Shown: positions 19,883-24,000, counted from the stretch's first letter. The stretch: 24,000 bases of DNA from an uncultured Chthoniobacterales bacterium (GCA_964245965.1 CAXTOP010000008.1:52081-76080); one strand, 5' to 3'. Numbers and translations are program-made. The notes: a model not told the origin generated them from the sequence alone.

Positions 19883-20038
19883 ACCTGGCGCAGCCGCGTT
19901 GCACAAGGCGCGGGAAGGCTCCGGCCCCTTGAACCGTTGGCCACCCATCCTTGGAGCGCAATTCTTTCCTTTTCCTGAGAGGACTCTTCTATCGGTGCGG
20001 CCACGGCGTTGGTTGACAGCGTACACCAGCCTGGCGAA

Positions 20039-20055
20039 GGTTGACGCTGTCAACC
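20039..20055. promoter_or_regulatory. Candidate TetR operator: 17-bp palindrome GGTTGAC-GCT-GTCAACC, 15 nt upstream of the SDR-TetR operon start
   Basis: Perfect 7-bp arms at 20039..20045 and 20049..20055. An additional GGTTGAC half-site lies at 20011..20017, and GGTTGACAGCG (20011..20021) is the exact reverse complement of CGCTGTCAACC (20045..20055). Confidence 0.45.
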
Positions 20056-20069
20056 TAAAGGAAATCATC

Positions 20070-21038
20070 ATGCCAACCACTCTTATCACCGGCGGTCATG
20101 CCGGCATCGGCTTCGAATGCGCCAAACAGCTTGCCTCTCAATCGCGTCACCACCTGGTCCTCGCCGGGCGCAGCCCGGAGCGGATGGAGGCCGCGGCCCA
20201 GCAGCTCCGGACGGCCTACGGCGTCCAGGTCACCACCCTGCCGCTCGACACCTCTTCGCTGGCCTCGGTCCGGGAGGCCGCCGCCCGGTTCCGTGCGATG
20301 CTTGACCGCGGCGAAATTGACTCTTTCCAAGCGCTCTTGTGCAACGCCGGCGGCAGACACAATGGGCCGCTCTCCTACAGCCCCGAGGGCTACGAGACCA
20401 CGTTCGCGACCAATTGCCTGGGGCATTTCCTGCTGGTCGAACTGCTTACGAATCGGTTGGCGGACCACGGACGGATCGTGTTCACCGCGAGCGGCACGCA
20501 CGATCCCGACACCACGGACGGAAAGATGGTCGGCCTCGTGGCGGAGCCGGACGCGCTTGCCCTGGCCAACGATGGAAAAGACGGCCGGAAGCCGCTCTCC
20601 GCGGGCAAGCGCTACTCGACCTCCAAGCTCTGCACGATTCTTTACGCGTATGAACTGCACCGCCGGTTACGGCGCTCCGGCAATTTGATCGCGTCGATTG
20701 CCTTCGACCCCGGGTCCATCCCCGAGACCGGGCTGCTGCGCACGATGCCAAAGCCGGTGCAGGTGCTGGCGAAAACCCGCTTCATGAAGTGGGTCATGAA
20801 GCGGGCGGGCGTCACGCAGAGCACGGTCAGCTTCTCGGGTGCCTCTCTTGCCAAGCTGGCTGCCGATCCCGCCTACGCGAATGGATCGGGCAAGTATTTC
20901 CAGTCGCAGGACGGCGCACTCCATGAGAGAAGATCTTCTAAACTGTCCTATGACGAAGCGCGCGCCCTGAAACTATGGAACGACTCCAAGACGCTCGTCC
21001 GGCTGCAGGGAAACGAAGAGTCCGTTCCGCTGCGGTGA
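20070..21038 (+). CDS. Short-chain dehydrogenase/reductase (retinol-dehydrogenase/WW-oxidoreductase-like extended type)
   Basis: MPTTLITGGHAGIGFECAKQLA..., LLCNAG, FTASGTH...YSTSKLCTILYAYEL. AAAGGAAA Shine-Dalgarno-like motif 7 nt upstream of ATG 20070. The track start 19899 is an extension. Confidence 0.8.
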   Translation: MPTTLITGGHAGIGFECAKQLASQSRHHLVLAGRSPERMEAAAQQLRTAYGVQVTTLPLDTSSLASVREAAARFRAMLDRGEIDSFQALLCNAGGRHNGPLSYSPEGYETTFATNCLGHFLLVELLTNRLADHGRIVFTASGTHDPDTTDGKMVGLVAEPDALALANDGKDGRKPLSAGKRYSTSKLCTILYAYELHRRLRRSGNLIASIAFDPGSIPETGLLRTMPKPVQVLAKTRFMKWVMKRAGVTQSTVSFSGASLAKLAADPAYANGSGKYFQSQDGALHERRSSKLSYDEARALKLWNDSKTLVRLQGNEESVPLR

Positions 21039-21670
21039 CCACCGGCCGAAGGCTGATCCTCGCGGCGGCAGCGTTGCTCGACCGCGGCGGCGAGGACGCC
21101 GTGACGCTGCGCGCGGTCGGCCACGCTGCCGGCCTCTCGCACAACGCTCCCTACAAGCATTTCGAGAGCCGGGATGCGTTGCTGGCTGCCGTCGCCGCCG
21201 CCGACTTTGCCATGCTGACGGAAGCTTTCCGGTCCGCCCGTCAGAGCGCCGCAGGACCTGCTGCGAAATTGATGAACGCGCTCCAGGTCGTCGTTGACTT
21301 CAGCGTCGAACATCCGGCCCGCTACCGGCTGCTCTTCAGCGACCCGGCGATTGCCGCGCAGAAGGGCGAGTTGGAGCGGAGCGCCTTCGCGGCTTTTGGC
21401 GAGTTTGTCGGGATCGTGGAGGAATGCCAGCTGGCGCAAGCCTTGCCGGACGTACCCGACACGACGCTCGCCGGGCTGTTGTTTGCGACAATGCACGGCC
21501 TGATCGCGCTGAAGGCGAGCGGCCGGATGCATCCCGAGAAGGGGTTGACCGGAGTGCGGAGCAGCCTCGAGTTGCTGATTGATCTCTTGTCGCCCCGACG
21601 CAAGGGGTCCGCCTCCGGAGATCAGGAAGCGGCCTCACCGGTTGGGCTGTCCCCCGAGCGCATGCGGTGA
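21035..21670 (+). CDS. TetR/AcrR-family transcriptional regulator
   Basis: TTGRRLILAAAALLDRGGEDAVTLRAVGHAAGLSHNAPYKHFESRDALLAAV is a TetR HTH. GTG 21035 overlaps the SDR stop (GTGA), suggesting coupling; ATG 20975 is the alternative. The last ~16 codons are antisense to an integrase remnant (see findings). Confidence 0.75.
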   Translation: MTTGRRLILAAAALLDRGGEDAVTLRAVGHAAGLSHNAPYKHFESRDALLAAVAAADFAMLTEAFRSARQSAAGPAAKLMNALQVVVDFSVEHPARYRLLFSDPAIAAQKGELERSAFAAFGEFVGIVEECQLAQALPDVPDTTLAGLLFATMHGLIALKASGRMHPEKGLTGVRSSLELLIDLLSPRRKGSASGDQEAASPVGLSPERMR

Positions 21671-21723
21671 CGGTCGTAGAGGCGGGTCGTGGCAACGTTC
21701 GCATGACCGTACTTGCGGTTGGC
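21622..21723 (-). pseudogene. C-terminal stub (~33 codons) of a tyrosine recombinase/integrase
   Basis: The minus strand reads ANRKYGHANVATTRLYDRHRMRSGDSPTGEAAS then stop (TGA, + strand 21622..21624). GHANxxTTxxYDR is the box II / catalytic-Tyr end of phage-type integrases. From memory, the tail resembles a subfamily ending ...YDRRxxRPEDSPTF.... There is no upstream integrase body; an in-frame stop lies at 21781..21783. Confidence 0.45.
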
Positions 21724-21881
21724 ACCAGGCGGAGGTTGGAAGCCGAAGCCGCTGGAGCGATTGCTATTTACAATAGTAGATTAACTAATAACACCATTTC
21801 TCTTGATTAGCCCAGCGTATTTAGTGCCTCTATGATGTAGGGGTAGCTGGCAAGCGAGCGCATCCGGGCGGGTTGGCTGGT

Positions 21882-22418
21882 TCAGGCCTGCAACTCGGTA
21901 TCCAGACGGGTGCGCAAAGCCGCCAGCGTACCAAAGAGGGTGTTGGAAGCGGCGCTTTTAAGTTCCTGCCACCAGCGCTCGATCGGGTTGAGTTCCGGGC
22001 AGTACGCCCGCAGGGAGAGGGAGGCGACCCGCTCGGGCCAGCACAGGGCCTTGGCGCGGTGCGGCCCGCTGTTGTCCAGCAGGAACACCTGCACCTCCTG
22101 CGGATCTTGCGCGTGGGCGGCGGCGAACGCATCGAGAAAGACCTGCAAGCAGCCGTGGTCGGTAGCGGGTAGTTCCAAGACGAAGCTCCTGCCGCTTTGG
22201 GGTTCCACGGCCCCGCACAGCCAGAAGCTTTTGAAATCCTGCTCAAAGGGGCACACCGGCTTGAGGCCCGGCAGGGTCAGGCGGCGGCGCTGGATGGTGT
22301 GCAGCCCAAGGCGGCTCTCGTCCTGTGCCCACAGGCCCACCCGCTGGTCGAGATGAGCGGCTTGGAGGGCGGCCAGCTCTTCCTTCAAGCCGCCAGGGTC
22401 ACGTCTAAATGCTTTGAC
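21882..22418 (-). mobile_element. IS630-family transposase remnant: DDE_3 catalytic domain only, N-terminal DNA-binding half missing, no Met start
   Basis: VKAFRRDPGGLKEELAALQAAHLDQRVGLWAQDESRLGLH...FWLCGAVEPQSGRSF...VQVFLLDNSGPHRAKAL...LSLRAYCPELNPIERWWQELK carries the D, D, E triad with the ELNPIE signature. Upstream of codon ~131 of track ORF 21882..22811 the frame is only CRISPR-repeat read-through. Confidence 0.7.
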
Positions 22419-22476
22419 ATTGCTGAGGAAGACCAAGGAAACACAAAAACAGATGTCAAAGAGTTTAGACGTGACC
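22397..22476. repeat. 24-bp inverted repeat (2 central mismatches, 32-nt loop) at the IS630-truncation / CRISPR-trailer boundary
   Basis: Left arm 22397..22420 is GGTCACGTCTAAATGCTTTGACAT. Right arm 22453..22476 is ATGTCAAAGAGTTTAGACGTGACC. The left arm encodes the first retained transposase codons (VKAFRRDP on the minus strand). The right arm ends 3 nt before the degenerate terminal CRISPR repeat. Confidence 0.65.
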
Positions 22477-22479
22477 CCA

Positions 22480-24000
22480 GCGGCTTCGCACGCCCGGGCT
22501 CGGAAGCCGGGGCGACGGAATACCCGCGCGACAACCGCGGGTAATGAATGTGTTTCAATACACGCCCGGGCTCGGAAGCCGGGGCGACTTGTTCGGATCG
22601 GTGATACCGGACAAGCTCGTGTTGTTTCAATACACGCCCGGGCTCGGAAGCCGGGGCGACTCGAGCGTCGGCCCCGGTTCGCGCACGACGACGATAGTTT
22701 CAATACACGCCCGGGCTCGGAAGCCGGGGCGACACGTGCACCTGGGTCGGGACGAGATCCACTTTCGGGTTTCAATACACGCCCGGGCTCGGAAGCCGGG
22801 GCGACGGGCATGGTTAGTTACCCTCCTCGGCTGTGGATGCGTTTCAATACACGCCCGGGCTCGGAAGCCGGGGCGACTTCACTGGTTGCCGATGGAGGCA
22901 CCGATTCCGAAGTTTTAATACACGCCCGGGCTCGGAAGCCGAGGCGACTTGCTGAGTTGCGTCATCGCGTCCAGCAGATCGTTGTTTCAATACACGCCCG
23001 GGCTCGGAAGCCGGGGCGACGCGGTGATCGTGGTTTTACCGGTGGCCGGCAAGGTGTTTCAATACACGCCCGGGCTCGGAAGCCGGGGCGACCGTGCTTG
23101 TTCCTGGGTTTTGAGCGTTGGTAATCAGTTTCAATACACGCCCGGGCTCGGAAGCCGGGGCGACCGGCTGGCATAGCCCTTGTGCAACTTCCAAAAGGGG
23201 TTTCAATACACGCCCGGGCTCGGAAGCCGGGGCGACGCTACCACAGAGATATTGCACACTAGGATGCCGAGTTTCAATACACGCCCGGGCTCGGAAGCCG
23301 GGGCGACCCGGAAAGGCGGATCAGCGCTTTCTTGGTCAACGTTTCAATACACGCCCGGGCTCGGAAGCCGGGGCGACGCAACTCGTGGCGCACGGCAGCC
23401 TCGCCGCACTGGTTTCAATACACGCCCGGGCTCGGAAGCCGGGGCGACGTGGGCGTTCGACAAGGACCAAGTCCCCCAGCTTGTTTCAATACACGCCCGG
23501 GCTCGGAAGCCGGGGCGACCTACGCCGTCTTTCGCAACACGAAAGACGGCAAGGTTTCAATACACGCCCGGGCTCGGAAGCCGGGGCGACTCTTATGCAA
23601 TGCCAACGCGGGTAGTATCACGCAGTTTCAATACACGCCCGGGCTCGGAAGCCGGGGCGACCTGCTTGTAAGTCTCCATCTGATCTGGCGTGAGGTGTTT
23701 CAATACACGCCCGGGCTCGGAAGCCGGGGCGACGCAATCAGAGCAGCCTCAACTGGCCATTGAGCAGGTTTCAATACACGCCCGGGCTCGGAAGCCGGGG
23801 CGACGGTGCTGACCGCCGCGTTGCCCAAGATGTTGCCGGTGTTTCAATACACGCCCGGGCTCGGAAGCCGGGGCGACCCGGGTCTTTGCCGCTCGCTGCC
23901 GGGGAAAATTCGTTTCAATACACGCCCGGGCTCGGAAGCCGGGGCGACGCAAGGGTTAGGGGGTGTTAGAGAGCCCCACTCATGTTTCAATACACGCCCG
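22480..24000 (-). CRISPR. CRISPR array, 37-bp repeat, 22 repeat copies / 21 spacers in the window, continues beyond the right edge
   Basis: Repeat on the + strand is GTTTCAATACACGCCCGGGCTCGGAAGCCGGGGCGAC. Starts are at 22480 (degenerate first 10 nt), 22552, 22624, 22697, 22769, 22841, 22912 (2 SNPs), 22984, 23056, 23128, 23200, 23271, 23341, 23412, 23483, 23554, 23625, 23697, 23768, 23841, 23912 and 23984 (cut by the window end). Spacers are 33-36 bp and all different. The reverse complement GTCGCCCCGGCTTCCGAGCCCGGGCGTGTATTGAAAC ends in ATTGAAAC and the degenerate copy is at the left, so minus-strand transcription is inferred. Confidence 0.97.

What the first reader, a model, noticed from the sequence alone, without database searches (positions are those of the whole stretch)
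22480..24000. Large CRISPR array with a GTCGC...ATTGAAAC 37-bp repeat; leader and cas genes must lie outside the window
Seen in sequence:
- 20 complete repeats, one 5'-degenerate copy and one copy truncated by the window end.
- 21 unique spacers of 33-36 bp. The left half is mostly 35 bp and the right half mostly 34 bp.
- The minus-strand repeat GTCGCCCCGGCTTCCGAGCCCGGGCGTGTATTGAAAC can form a 7-bp stem (CCCGGCT / AGC-C-CGGG, one bulged C) with a UCCG loop. This is followed by CGTGTATTGAAAC.

Established knowledge:
- A 3' ATTGAAAC handle and a 5' GTCGC are hallmarks of the repeat class used by type I-C, I-G(U) and some type III systems.
- Terminal-repeat degeneration marks the leader-distal end.

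Inference:
- The array is read right-to-left.
- The leader and cas operon (if any) are to the right.
- None of the 22 kb to the left encodes a Cas protein.
- The subtype cannot be assigned from the repeat alone, and a 37-bp version of this repeat class is longer than the canonical 32-bp I-C repeat.
Basis: partly seen in the sequence, partly recalled or inferred. Interest (0 to 1): 0.7.

Follow-up and report, generated by a model that had tools for sequence, protein, structure and literature searches.

The report
Ordinary CRISPR array, likely type I-C
This is a genuine but ordinary bacterial CRISPR immune-memory array, read right to left, whose leader and a cas2 gene lie just beyond the window and whose closest relatives belong to type I-C systems.

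Summary
Positions 22480-24000 carry 19 perfect 37-nt repeats, one copy with 2 substitutions, one terminally degenerate copy and one copy cut by the window end. They separate 21 unique spacers of 33-36 nt.

The repeat folds as a 2-nt overhang, a 10-position hairpin (9 pairs plus one C·C mismatch, UCCG loop) and an 11-nt tail. That is the type I-C repeat layout with a longer stem. No Cas protein is encoded in the 22 kb to the left.

In 120 loci with related 37-nt repeats, cas genes lie upstream of GTCGC→GAAAC:
- Cas4/Cas1 is upstream in 46 of 47 arrays and downstream in 2 of 42.
- Cas7/Csd2 is upstream in 27 of 30 arrays.
- Cas8c, Cas5c and Cas1c score above their curated cut-offs.

A spurious public ORF (P0248) from the same contig reads through the window end. 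It shows:
- five more repeats, so the whole array has 27 repeat units and ends near 24377;
- a leader of about 224 nt with the relatives' conserved box in register;
- the antisense imprint of a Cas2 C-terminus, compatible at 39 of 46 positions.

The subtype is most likely I-C, or a close I-C variant. No protospacers were found. This is a new member of a known kind and of low interest.

The parts
22480..24000 (-). CRISPR array, the part inside the window: 22 repeat units and 21 spacers. The crRNA-sense repeat is GTCGCCCCGGCTTCCGAGCCCGGGCGTGTATTGAAAC. The array continues to about 24377 outside the window.
   Evidence: 19 exact matches against 0.00 expected. CRISPR-DR9 matches on the minus strand only; continuation beyond the window.
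22480..22516 (-). Terminal (leader-distal) repeat. Its first 28 nt are identical to the consensus. Its last 9 nt read CGAAGCCGC in place of TATTGAAAC.
   Evidence: The same 3' decay of the terminal repeat occurs in related arrays (L005, L009, L012, L021, L040, L064, L083, L084, L087).
22912..22948 (-). Repeat copy with 2 substitutions. In the minus-strand sense, C7->T turns the C7-G22 pair into a U·G wobble, and G33->A changes the handle to ATTAAAAC. It is the seventh repeat unit from the distal end, counting the degenerate terminal copy.
23984..24000 (-). Repeat copy cut by the window end; 17 nt are visible.
   Evidence: Register confirmed by the translation of 23830-24000.
22387..22486 (.). 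Foldback palindrome of 100 nt: two 34-nt arms, 88% complementary, around a 32-nt loop. The left arm lies in transposase-homologous coding sequence. The right arm runs into the first 7 bases of the degenerate terminal repeat. Probably a rearrangement scar at the trailer end of the array.
   Evidence: -55.5 kcal/mol, z = -6.5. IS630 homology starts at about 22415.
21882..22420 (-). C-terminal remnant of an IS630-family (DDE_3) transposase. About 150 N-terminal residues are missing. The long ORF 21882-22811 that runs on into the array is an artefact.
   Evidence: PF13358, E = 1.4e-14, domain starts at residue 160 of the artefactual ORF; 37-45% identity to annotated IS630 transposases from query residue 19.
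23830..24000 (+). Start of a spurious plus-strand ORF (public protein P0248, 303 aa) that translates the array. Its first 57 residues are identical to the window. Its remainder reports what lies beyond the window: five more repeats, the leader, and the antisense of the cas2 3' end.

Best explanation
This is the leader-distal three quarters of a working-type CRISPR array. It sits on a 140.8-kb contig, probably from an uncultured Acidobacteriota genome.

Layout, in window-frame coordinates:
- The whole array spans about 22480-24377, with 27 repeat units and 26 spacers.
- It is transcribed on the minus strand from a leader of about 224 nt (about 24378-24601).
- A cas2 gene on the same strand ends at about 24602-24604.

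Predicted processing (inferred):
- The pre-crRNA folds at each repeat into a 2-nt overhang, a 10-position hairpin and an 11-nt tail.
- By analogy with type I-C, a catalytic Cas5c would cut at the 3' base of the hairpin.
- The resulting crRNAs would carry an 11-nt 5' handle (UGUAUUGAAAC), a 33-36-nt guide and a 26-nt 3' hairpin.
- They would load into a Cas5c-Cas8c-Cas7 Cascade that recruits Cas3.
- A Cas4-Cas1c-Cas2 module would add new spacers at the leader end, which is to the right.

What is shown and what is inferred:
- Shown: the array, its orientation, the hairpin, the absence of cas genes on the left, and the trailer end abutting an IS630 remnant with a foldback scar.
- Shown indirectly: the end of the array, the leader and cas2.
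- Inferred: the type I-C effector, the Cas5c cleavage site and the PAM.
For: Array statistics.

Repeat structure:
- The hairpin is followed by exactly 11 nt.
- The helix is supported by covariation in 56 repeat variants.

Related 37-nt arrays:
- cas genes are upstream and co-directional: Cas4/Cas1 in 46 of 47 arrays against 2 of 42 downstream, and Csd2 in 27 of 30 against 0 of 29.
- NCBIfam scores above the curated cut-off: Cas8c/Csd1 264 and 304 bits (cut-off 219); Cas7/Csd2 259 and 355 (182); Cas5c 156 (85); Cas1c 412-517 (385).
- The I-G Cas4g/Cas1g fusion model stays far below its cut-off (108-324 against 560).

This contig itself:
- P0248 is the only database protein matching the repeat peptides. 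It comes from a contig of the same length, 140,826 nt, as P0001 and P0128, which match window proteins at 100% identity.
- Its first 57 residues equal the window translation.
- It then shows five more repeats followed by 120 non-repeat residues.
- The back-translated antisense frame fits the relatives' Cas2 C-terminus (DSLRFYFLDE..EHHG..KP.DL.EPLIL*) at 39 of 46 positions. The excess score is 27.5, against 7.7 ± 1.4 (maximum 12.25) for shuffled sequences.
- The relatives' conserved leader box GGTTCGCGGAAA at -56 to -45 is compatible at 11 of 12 positions in the same register. Register 0 scores 16.75, against 9.0 ± 2.1 (maximum 15.25) over 199 other registers.
- The inferred leader of 224 nt falls within the relatives' range of 152-398 nt.
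Against: - The effector genes of this contig were never seen. The contig could not be fetched.
- cas2 and the leader are read only through a degenerate back-translation of one reading frame.
- No related array has this exact repeat. The nearest differ at 7 or more of 37 positions, and both metagenome scans found nothing.
- The three bases after the predicted cut are UGU. They are UGG in the characterised type I-C repeats (PMC8524198) and mostly CGG in the relatives fetched here. The stem also carries a C·C mismatch that most of these relatives lack.
- Some of the closest relatives (L025, L046) have a variant operon. Their large subunit is unrecognisable and cas3 sits between cas7 and cas4.
- No protospacer was found, so neither the PAM nor activity could be checked.
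Confidence: 0.78

Rival explanations
1. The array belongs to a different system that uses the same GTCGC...ATTGAAAC repeat class. That could be type I-G (Cas5-Cas6 fusion processing, fused Cas4-Cas1) or a type III system that borrows the array.
For: - The ATTGAAAC 3' end is shared by several type I and type III repeat families (established knowledge).
- The effector genes of this contig were not seen.
- The Cas3 proteins of the relatives give partial hits to the I-G Cas3g model (80-97 bits).
Against: - Among related arrays with at least 4 kb of upstream flank, 27 of 30 carry Csd2. No Cas10 and no Csb-type cluster appeared among the recurrent flank families.
- Cas1 passes the Cas1c cut-off but not the Cas4g/Cas1g cut-off.
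- The Cas3g hits are far below the cut-off of 400.
- The 11-nt tail after the stem fits Cas5c processing.
Confidence: 0.1
2. The array is a decaying or orphaned remnant. The adaptation or effector genes beyond cas2 are missing or broken, and the array is no longer used.
For: - The trailer end abuts an IS630 remnant and a foldback scar, so the locus has been rearranged.
- None of the 21 spacers matches known phages or plasmids.
- Related contigs that share the neighbouring SDR-TetR cassette have no array.
Against: - 19 of the 20 full repeats in the window are identical, and the five repeats beyond the window are conserved at the peptide level.
- The leader box and the cas2 reading frame appear intact.
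- 46 of 47 related arrays keep Cas4/Cas1 next to them.
- A lack of protospacer hits is usual for uncultured soil bacteria.
Confidence: 0.1
3. The array is read left to right. The AT-richer 22397-22479 stretch would then be the leader and the plus strand would be transcribed.
For: - The 80 nt to the left of the array are AT-richer than the 63% GC window.
- The plus-strand fold of the repeat is slightly more stable (-18.3 against -16 kcal/mol).
Against: - The repeat next to that stretch is the degenerate one, whereas a leader-proximal repeat must be intact.
- The stretch is a foldback scar that contains transposase coding sequence.
- No promoter-like site was found in it.
- All Rfam DR matches are on the minus strand.
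- cas2 and the conserved leader box are on the other side.
Confidence: 0.02

Closest known systems
Type I-C (Dvulg) CRISPR-Cas arrays, e.g. Desulfovibrio vulgaris, Bacillus halodurans and Streptococcus mutans CRISPR2 (PMC8524198)
   Same: - GTCGC 5' end and ATTGAAAC 3' end.
- A 2-nt 5' overhang, a hairpin, then exactly 11 nt.
- Spacers of 33-36 nt.
- cas2 and the leader upstream of the array.
- Related arrays are attached to cas3-cas5c-cas8c-cas7-cas4-cas1c-cas2 operons.
   Different: - The repeat is 37 nt, not 32 nt. The extra bases all lie in the hairpin: a 10-position stem and a 4-nt loop, against a 7-bp stem and a 5-nt loop.
- The stem has a C·C mismatch.
- The three bases after the predicted cut are UGU rather than UGG.
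- The effector genes of this contig were not seen.
37-nt GTCGCCCCGG...CCGGGGCGCGGATTGAAAC arrays of Verrucomicrobiota MAGs (e.g. MWFF01000094.1 = L003/L025; DAOOQY010000141.1 = L068)
   Same: - Same repeat length and same helix columns.
- Same 3'-decayed terminal repeat.
- Compatible Cas2 C-terminus.
- Conserved leader box at -56 to -45.
   Different: - At least 7 of 37 positions differ, in the loop, the stem and the handle (CGG against UGU).
- The host phylum is different: the best-named homologues of window proteins are Bryobacteraceae and Terriglobus.
- The leader is 224 nt, against a median of 190 nt.
Rfam CRISPR-DR9 (RF01322)
   Same: A 37-position model. All 19 perfect copies match it end to end on the minus strand.
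   Different: Scores of 22.7-26.4 bits are well below the gathering score of 45. The repeat is not a member of that family.

Membership tests
CRISPR array (generic) | Series of near-identical direct repeats of 23-55 nt at regular spacing | tested here: met
   22 repeat units of 37 nt, spaced 70-73 nt apart; 19 are identical. 0.00 matches expected by chance.
CRISPR array (generic) | Unique spacers of similar length | tested here: met
   21 different spacers of 33-36 nt. None matches elsewhere in the window, even allowing up to 8 mismatches.
CRISPR array (generic) | Leader and cas genes flanking one end | tested here: met
   Tested indirectly. P0248 shows the end of the array. Its antisense frame fits a Cas2 C-terminus at 39 of 46 positions (z about 14 against shuffles). 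The conserved leader box is in register. The DNA itself was not seen.
Type I-C CRISPR-Cas | Repeat RNA with a short 5' overhang, a hairpin, and an 11-nt 3' tail that becomes the crRNA 5' handle | tested here: met
   RNAfold gives a 2-nt overhang, a helix (3-12 with 17-26) and an 11-nt tail. Covariation supports the helix. The reference layout is taken from PMC8524198.
Type I-C CRISPR-Cas | Cas8c/Csd1, Cas7/Csd2 and catalytic Cas5c present, with no Cas6 | not testable with these tools
   Any such genes would lie beyond the window, and the contig could not be fetched. In the related arrays tested, Csd1, Csd2 and Cas5c score above their cut-offs. The Csd2 cluster is upstream of 27 of 30 arrays.
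Type I-C CRISPR-Cas | Cas4 - Cas1c - Cas2 adaptation module next to the leader | tested here: inconclusive
   Only the C-terminal 45 residues of Cas2 are inferred for this contig. Cas1c scores above its cut-off in relatives.
Type I-C CRISPR-Cas | 5'-TTC protospacer-adjacent motif | not testable with these tools
   No credible protospacer was found. There were no hits in phage or plasmid records, apart from one chance-level plasmid match (27 nt, E = 4). Seeds from 8 spacers gave only 20-23-nt partial matches in IMG/VR; the 23-nt one is flanked by GCC.
Type I-G (formerly I-U) CRISPR-Cas | Fused Cas4-Cas1, with Csb1 (Cas5-Cas6), Csb2 and Cas8u2 | not testable with these tools
   Not visible for this contig. 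In relatives, Cas4 and Cas1 are mostly separate genes. The Cas4g/Cas1g fusion model scores 108-324 bits against a cut-off of 560.
Rfam CRISPR-DR9 (RF01322) | Score at or above the family's gathering threshold (45 bits) | tested here: not met
   22.7-26.4 bits. There was no hit at gathering thresholds for any Rfam family.

The most novel reading that the evidence does not exclude
The array may be served by a divergent I-C-like system rather than a canonical type I-C. One candidate is the operon seen beside the closest repeat relatives (L025, L046). It has a 780-aa large subunit that no NCBIfam model recognises, a weakly Csd2-like Cas7, and cas3 moved between cas7 and cas4. In that case the unusual UGU handle start and the C·C-interrupted stem would reflect a processing nuclease with altered specificity.
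Probability: 0.15. Interest if true: 0.3.

Novelty: new member of a known kind. Interest (0 to 1): 0.14.

Why it matters
It matters little beyond annotation. The result adds one more CRISPR locus, with a repeat variant not found in the collections scanned, to a probably acidobacterial soil genome.

Two practical points follow:
- 37-nt GTCGC...ATTGAAAC repeats should not be read as atypical for type I-C. In the loci sampled they are the usual partner of canonical I-C operons, and the extra length lies in the hairpin.
- Public protein databases hold "proteins" that are translations of CRISPR arrays. Here such an entry (P0248) could be used to read beyond a truncated window and recover the end of the array, the leader and cas2.

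The 26 spacers are a record of unknown mobile elements. They could be matched to viral contigs from the same sample.

Tried and rejected
- **First genome-contig scan.** The pattern was mis-specified: one base too long and out of register. It found nothing.
- **Second genome-contig scan.** The absence of the exact repeat from GTDB representative genomes is therefore not established.
- **Metagenome scans.** The exact repeat, and a version fixing only the GTGTATTGAAAC handle, gave 0 hits.
- **Fetching the source contig.** Look-ups failed with the TetR ORF, the SDR ORF, P0001, a second SDR ORF, P0128 and P0248. The contig is not in that index.
- **Contigs with the 90%-identical SDR-TetR cassette (L121-L123).** They share only 20005-21708 with the window and carry no array, so they do not help with the locus.
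- **Window against plasmid records.** Only scattered hits, mainly to arsB.
- **Spacers against public records.** No match in phage records. One chance-level 27-nt hit in plasmids (E = 4). In IMG/VR, spacer 19 has a 23-nt match and spacer 15 a 20-nt match, and the rest of each spacer mismatches. About one 20-mer hit is expected by chance over 8 scans (my rough estimate from the size of the collection), and the flank of the spacer-19 match is GCC, not TTC. Both were rejected as protospacers.
- **The palindrome at 22387-22486.** I considered it as a leader, a terminator or a MITE. It has no T-run and no promoter-like site, it occurs only once in the window, and its left arm is transposase coding sequence. 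I read it as a rearrangement scar.
- **The 8-nt GGAAGCCG match at 21739.** I considered it a possible relic repeat and rejected it, because its flanks do not align.

Full report
**Observation.**
Reading 22000-24000 and running two repeat finders confirms a regular array from 22480 to the window end. An exact tally gives:
- 19 perfect copies of the 37-nt unit (plus strand GTTTCAATACACGCCCGGGCTCGGAAGCCGGGGCGAC; minus strand GTCGCCCCGGCTTCCGAGCCCGGGCGTGTATTGAAAC);
- one copy with two substitutions (22912-22948);
- one degenerate copy at the left end (22480-22516), with 7 mismatches in its first 9 plus-strand bases;
- one copy cut by the window end.

A degenerate version of the repeat matches 19 times, against 0.00 expected in shuffles. 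The 21 spacers are all different, measure 33-36 nt, and have no second copy in the window. Two small corrections apply. The cut copy is 17 nt (23984-24000), and the last spacer is 35 nt.

**Repeat structure.**
RNAfold gives ..(((((.((((....)))).)))))........... for the minus-strand RNA (-16 kcal/mol). That is a 2-nt 5' overhang, a helix pairing 3-12 with 17-26 that is interrupted by a C8·C21 mismatch, a UCCG loop, and an 11-nt tail, UGUAUUGAAAC.

I aligned the consensus repeats of 55 related arrays with this one. In the same ten columns, 92% of cells are paired, against 41-70% when the partner columns are slid. Four pairs show compensatory changes.

Characterised type I-C repeats have a 2-nt overhang, a 7-bp stem, a 5-nt loop and an 11-nt overhang. 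[quoted passage not shown] The repeat here keeps both overhangs. All five extra bases lie in the hairpin.

**Surroundings in the window.**
Pfam scans of the 20 best-supported ORFs found no Cas domain. The ORFs encode:
- two-component sensors and regulators;
- an ACR3 arsenite carrier;
- a methyltransferase;
- two amidohydrolases;
- several short-chain dehydrogenases;
- LysR, TetR and ArsR regulators;
- an RlaP-family protein.

PADLOC found nothing in the unannotated ORFs. tblastn with all Cas proteins collected from relatives gave only one noise-level hit. "No Cas in the left 22 kb" therefore holds.

**The left edge of the array.**
Immediately left of the array lies the C-terminal half of an IS630-family transposase (DDE_3). 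The 309-aa ORF that seems to extend it into the array is an artefact.

Between the transposase remnant and the array lies a 100-nt foldback (22387-22486; 34-nt arms, -55.5 kcal/mol, z = -6.5). Its left arm is transposase-homologous coding sequence. Its right arm runs into the degenerate part of the terminal repeat. I read it as a rearrangement scar.

**Related arrays.**
The source contig could not be fetched. The exact repeat is absent from the JGI metagenome collection.

A degenerate pattern pulled 120 loci from GTDB representative genomes. The loci are mostly Verrucomicrobiota, with some Chloroflexota, Planctomycetota, Myxococcota, Proteobacteria and Acidobacteriota. None carries the exact repeat, and the nearest differ at 7-8 positions.

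I clustered the ORFs in their flanks. Every recurrent family lies on the 5' side of the GTCGC->GAAAC orientation and on the same strand:
- Cas4/Cas1 is upstream of 46 of 47 arrays and downstream of 2 of 42.
- Csd2 is upstream of 27 of 30 and downstream of 0 of 29.

NCBIfam identifies these families with scores above the curated cut-offs, as Cas8c/Csd1, Cas7/Csd2, Cas5c, Cas1c, Cas4 and Cas2. The full order cas3-cas5c-cas8c-cas7-cas4-cas1-cas2-leader-array is seen in L029 and L041.

A minority of loci (L025, L046, L008, L073) place cas3 directly before cas4. In L046 an unrecognised 780-aa protein stands where Cas8c would be.

At least nine related arrays end, on the side away from the cas genes, in a repeat with an intact 5' part and a decayed 3' part, exactly as here. 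Rfam's nearest family, CRISPR-DR9, matches only the minus strand and stays below threshold.

**Reading beyond the window.**
Gene callers often translate GC-rich arrays. I therefore searched the 5.8-billion-protein collection with a chimera of the repeat-encoded peptides. The single hit, P0248 (303 aa), comes from a contig of 140,826 nt. That is the same length as the contig carrying the 100%-identical TetR (P0001) and amidohydrolase (P0128).

Its first 57 residues equal the translation of 23830-24000. After the copy cut by the window end, it contains five more repeat peptides. Their register places the repeats at 24056, 24127, 24199, 24270 and 24341. After them come 120 residues with no repeat. 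The whole array therefore spans about 22480-24377, with 27 repeat units and 26 spacers.

I back-translated the 120-residue tail into codon sets and read the three antisense frames. One frame is compatible with the strongly conserved C-terminus of the relatives' Cas2 (DSLRFYFLDE..A.QR.EHHG..KP.DL.EPLIL, then a stop) at 39 of 46 positions. The excess score is 27.5, against 7.7 ± 1.4 (maximum 12.25) for shuffled Cas2 tails. This places a cas2 stop codon at about 24602-24604 on the minus strand and gives a leader of about 224 nt. In relatives the distance from the cas2 stop to the first repeat is 152-398 nt, with a median of 190 nt.

The relatives' leaders share a box, GGTTCGCGGAAA, at -56 to -45. 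The degenerate sequence here reads RRTTNGCRCANA at exactly those positions, compatible at 11 of 12. Over all conserved leader columns, register 0 scores 16.75 of 27, against 9.0 ± 2.1 (maximum 15.25) for 199 other registers. These are indirect readings of one frame, not DNA, but they agree with each other.

**Mechanism.**
- Shown: a minus-strand array with its leader-distal end at 22480.
- Shown indirectly: the leader and cas2 to the right.
- Inferred, from the repeat layout and from the company its relatives keep: a type I-C system. Cas5c would cut each repeat after G26 to give crRNAs with the 11-nt handle UGUAUUGAAAC. Cas5c-Cas8c-Cas7 Cascade and Cas3 would carry out interference. Cas4-Cas1c-Cas2 would insert new spacers at the right-hand end.
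- Differences from characterised systems: the longer, C·C-interrupted stem, and UGU instead of UGG after the cut.

**Targets.**
No spacer matches the phage records. The plasmid records gave one chance-level hit (27 nt, E = 4). Twenty-nucleotide seeds of eight spacers gave only a 23-nt and a 20-nt partial match in IMG/VR. Neither extends, and there is no TTC flank. This is the chance level.

**Host.**
The best-named homologues of window proteins are from Bryobacteraceae (67% identity) and Terriglobus (71% identity). This suggests an uncultured member of Acidobacteriota. It is a hint only.

**Verdict.**
This is a real, ordinary CRISPR array. The subtype can be narrowed to I-C or a close I-C variant. 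A 37-nt repeat of this class is common rather than odd. The array is a new member of a known kind and of low interest.

Noticed in passing
window 22387-22486: A very stable 100-nt foldback: 34-nt arms, 88% complementary, -55.5 kcal/mol, z = -6.5. It sits between the IS630 transposase remnant and the array. The left arm is transposase-homologous coding sequence, and the right arm overlaps the first 7 bases of the degenerate terminal repeat. It looks like an inverted-duplication scar.
   Followed up: partly
window 21744-21755 and 22477-22488; AT-rich stretch 21756-21830: A perfect 12-nt inverted repeat (CGAAGCCGCTGG / CCAGCGGCTTCG) brackets the AT-rich stretch, the transposase remnant and the foldback. 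Its right copy ends exactly where the terminal repeat's homology to the consensus begins. It could mark the ends of a decayed mobile element, or it could be chance (about 0.03 expected in this region; my own rough estimate, not a tool result).
   Followed up: no
window 20005-21708: The SDR-TetR gene pair is 90% identical at the DNA level to contigs from other metagenome assemblies (L121-L123), whose flanks are otherwise unrelated. Similarity stops at 21708, just before the AT-rich stretch and the IS remnant. The array therefore sits at a synteny break.
   Followed up: partly
window 23830 to beyond the window end (about 24741): A public protein entry (P0248, 303 aa; NCBI and ENA) is not a protein. 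It is the plus-strand translation of the CRISPR array, the leader and the antisense of cas2.
   Followed up: yes
L046 2-2341 and 2371-5609; L025 223-4107: Beside the repeats closest to this one, some Verrucomicrobiota loci carry a variant operon. It has a 780-aa protein with no NCBIfam match where Cas8c should be, a weakly Csd2-like Cas7 (65-88 bits against a cut-off of 182), and cas3 placed between cas7 and cas4. Cas4, Cas1c and Cas2 are normal.
   Followed up: partly
L001 1564-7919: In a Nitrospirota MAG, a Cas4-Cas1c-Cas2 module with only a two-repeat array has no effector genes within 7.8 kb upstream. Instead it follows UvrD/PcrA-like helicase fragments and an ORF with a weak hit to a retron effector endonuclease.
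   Followed up: no
Leaders of about 45 of the 60 related loci with a recognised cas2 (e.g. L114, L025, L068, L094), positions -56 to -45 before the first repeat: The distance from the cas2 stop to the first repeat is remarkably constant, at about 190 nt. These leaders share a conserved box (GGTTCGCGGAAA) and a TGCGGC...GCCGCA hairpin-like element that ends at the first repeat. Both hold across many 37-nt type I-C loci.
   Followed up: partly
window 23520-23553 (spacer 15): This spacer is itself a near-perfect hairpin (GCCGTCTTTCG CAACA CGAAAGACGGC), as if it had been taken from a terminator-like site in its source.
   Followed up: no
window 23805-23840 (spacer 19); L124 1072-1094; L125 5736-5758: The 23 nt of spacer 19 nearest the leader match two IMG/VR contigs exactly. 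The other 13 nt do not match, and the flank is GCC rather than TTC. I judged this to be chance.
   Followed up: yes
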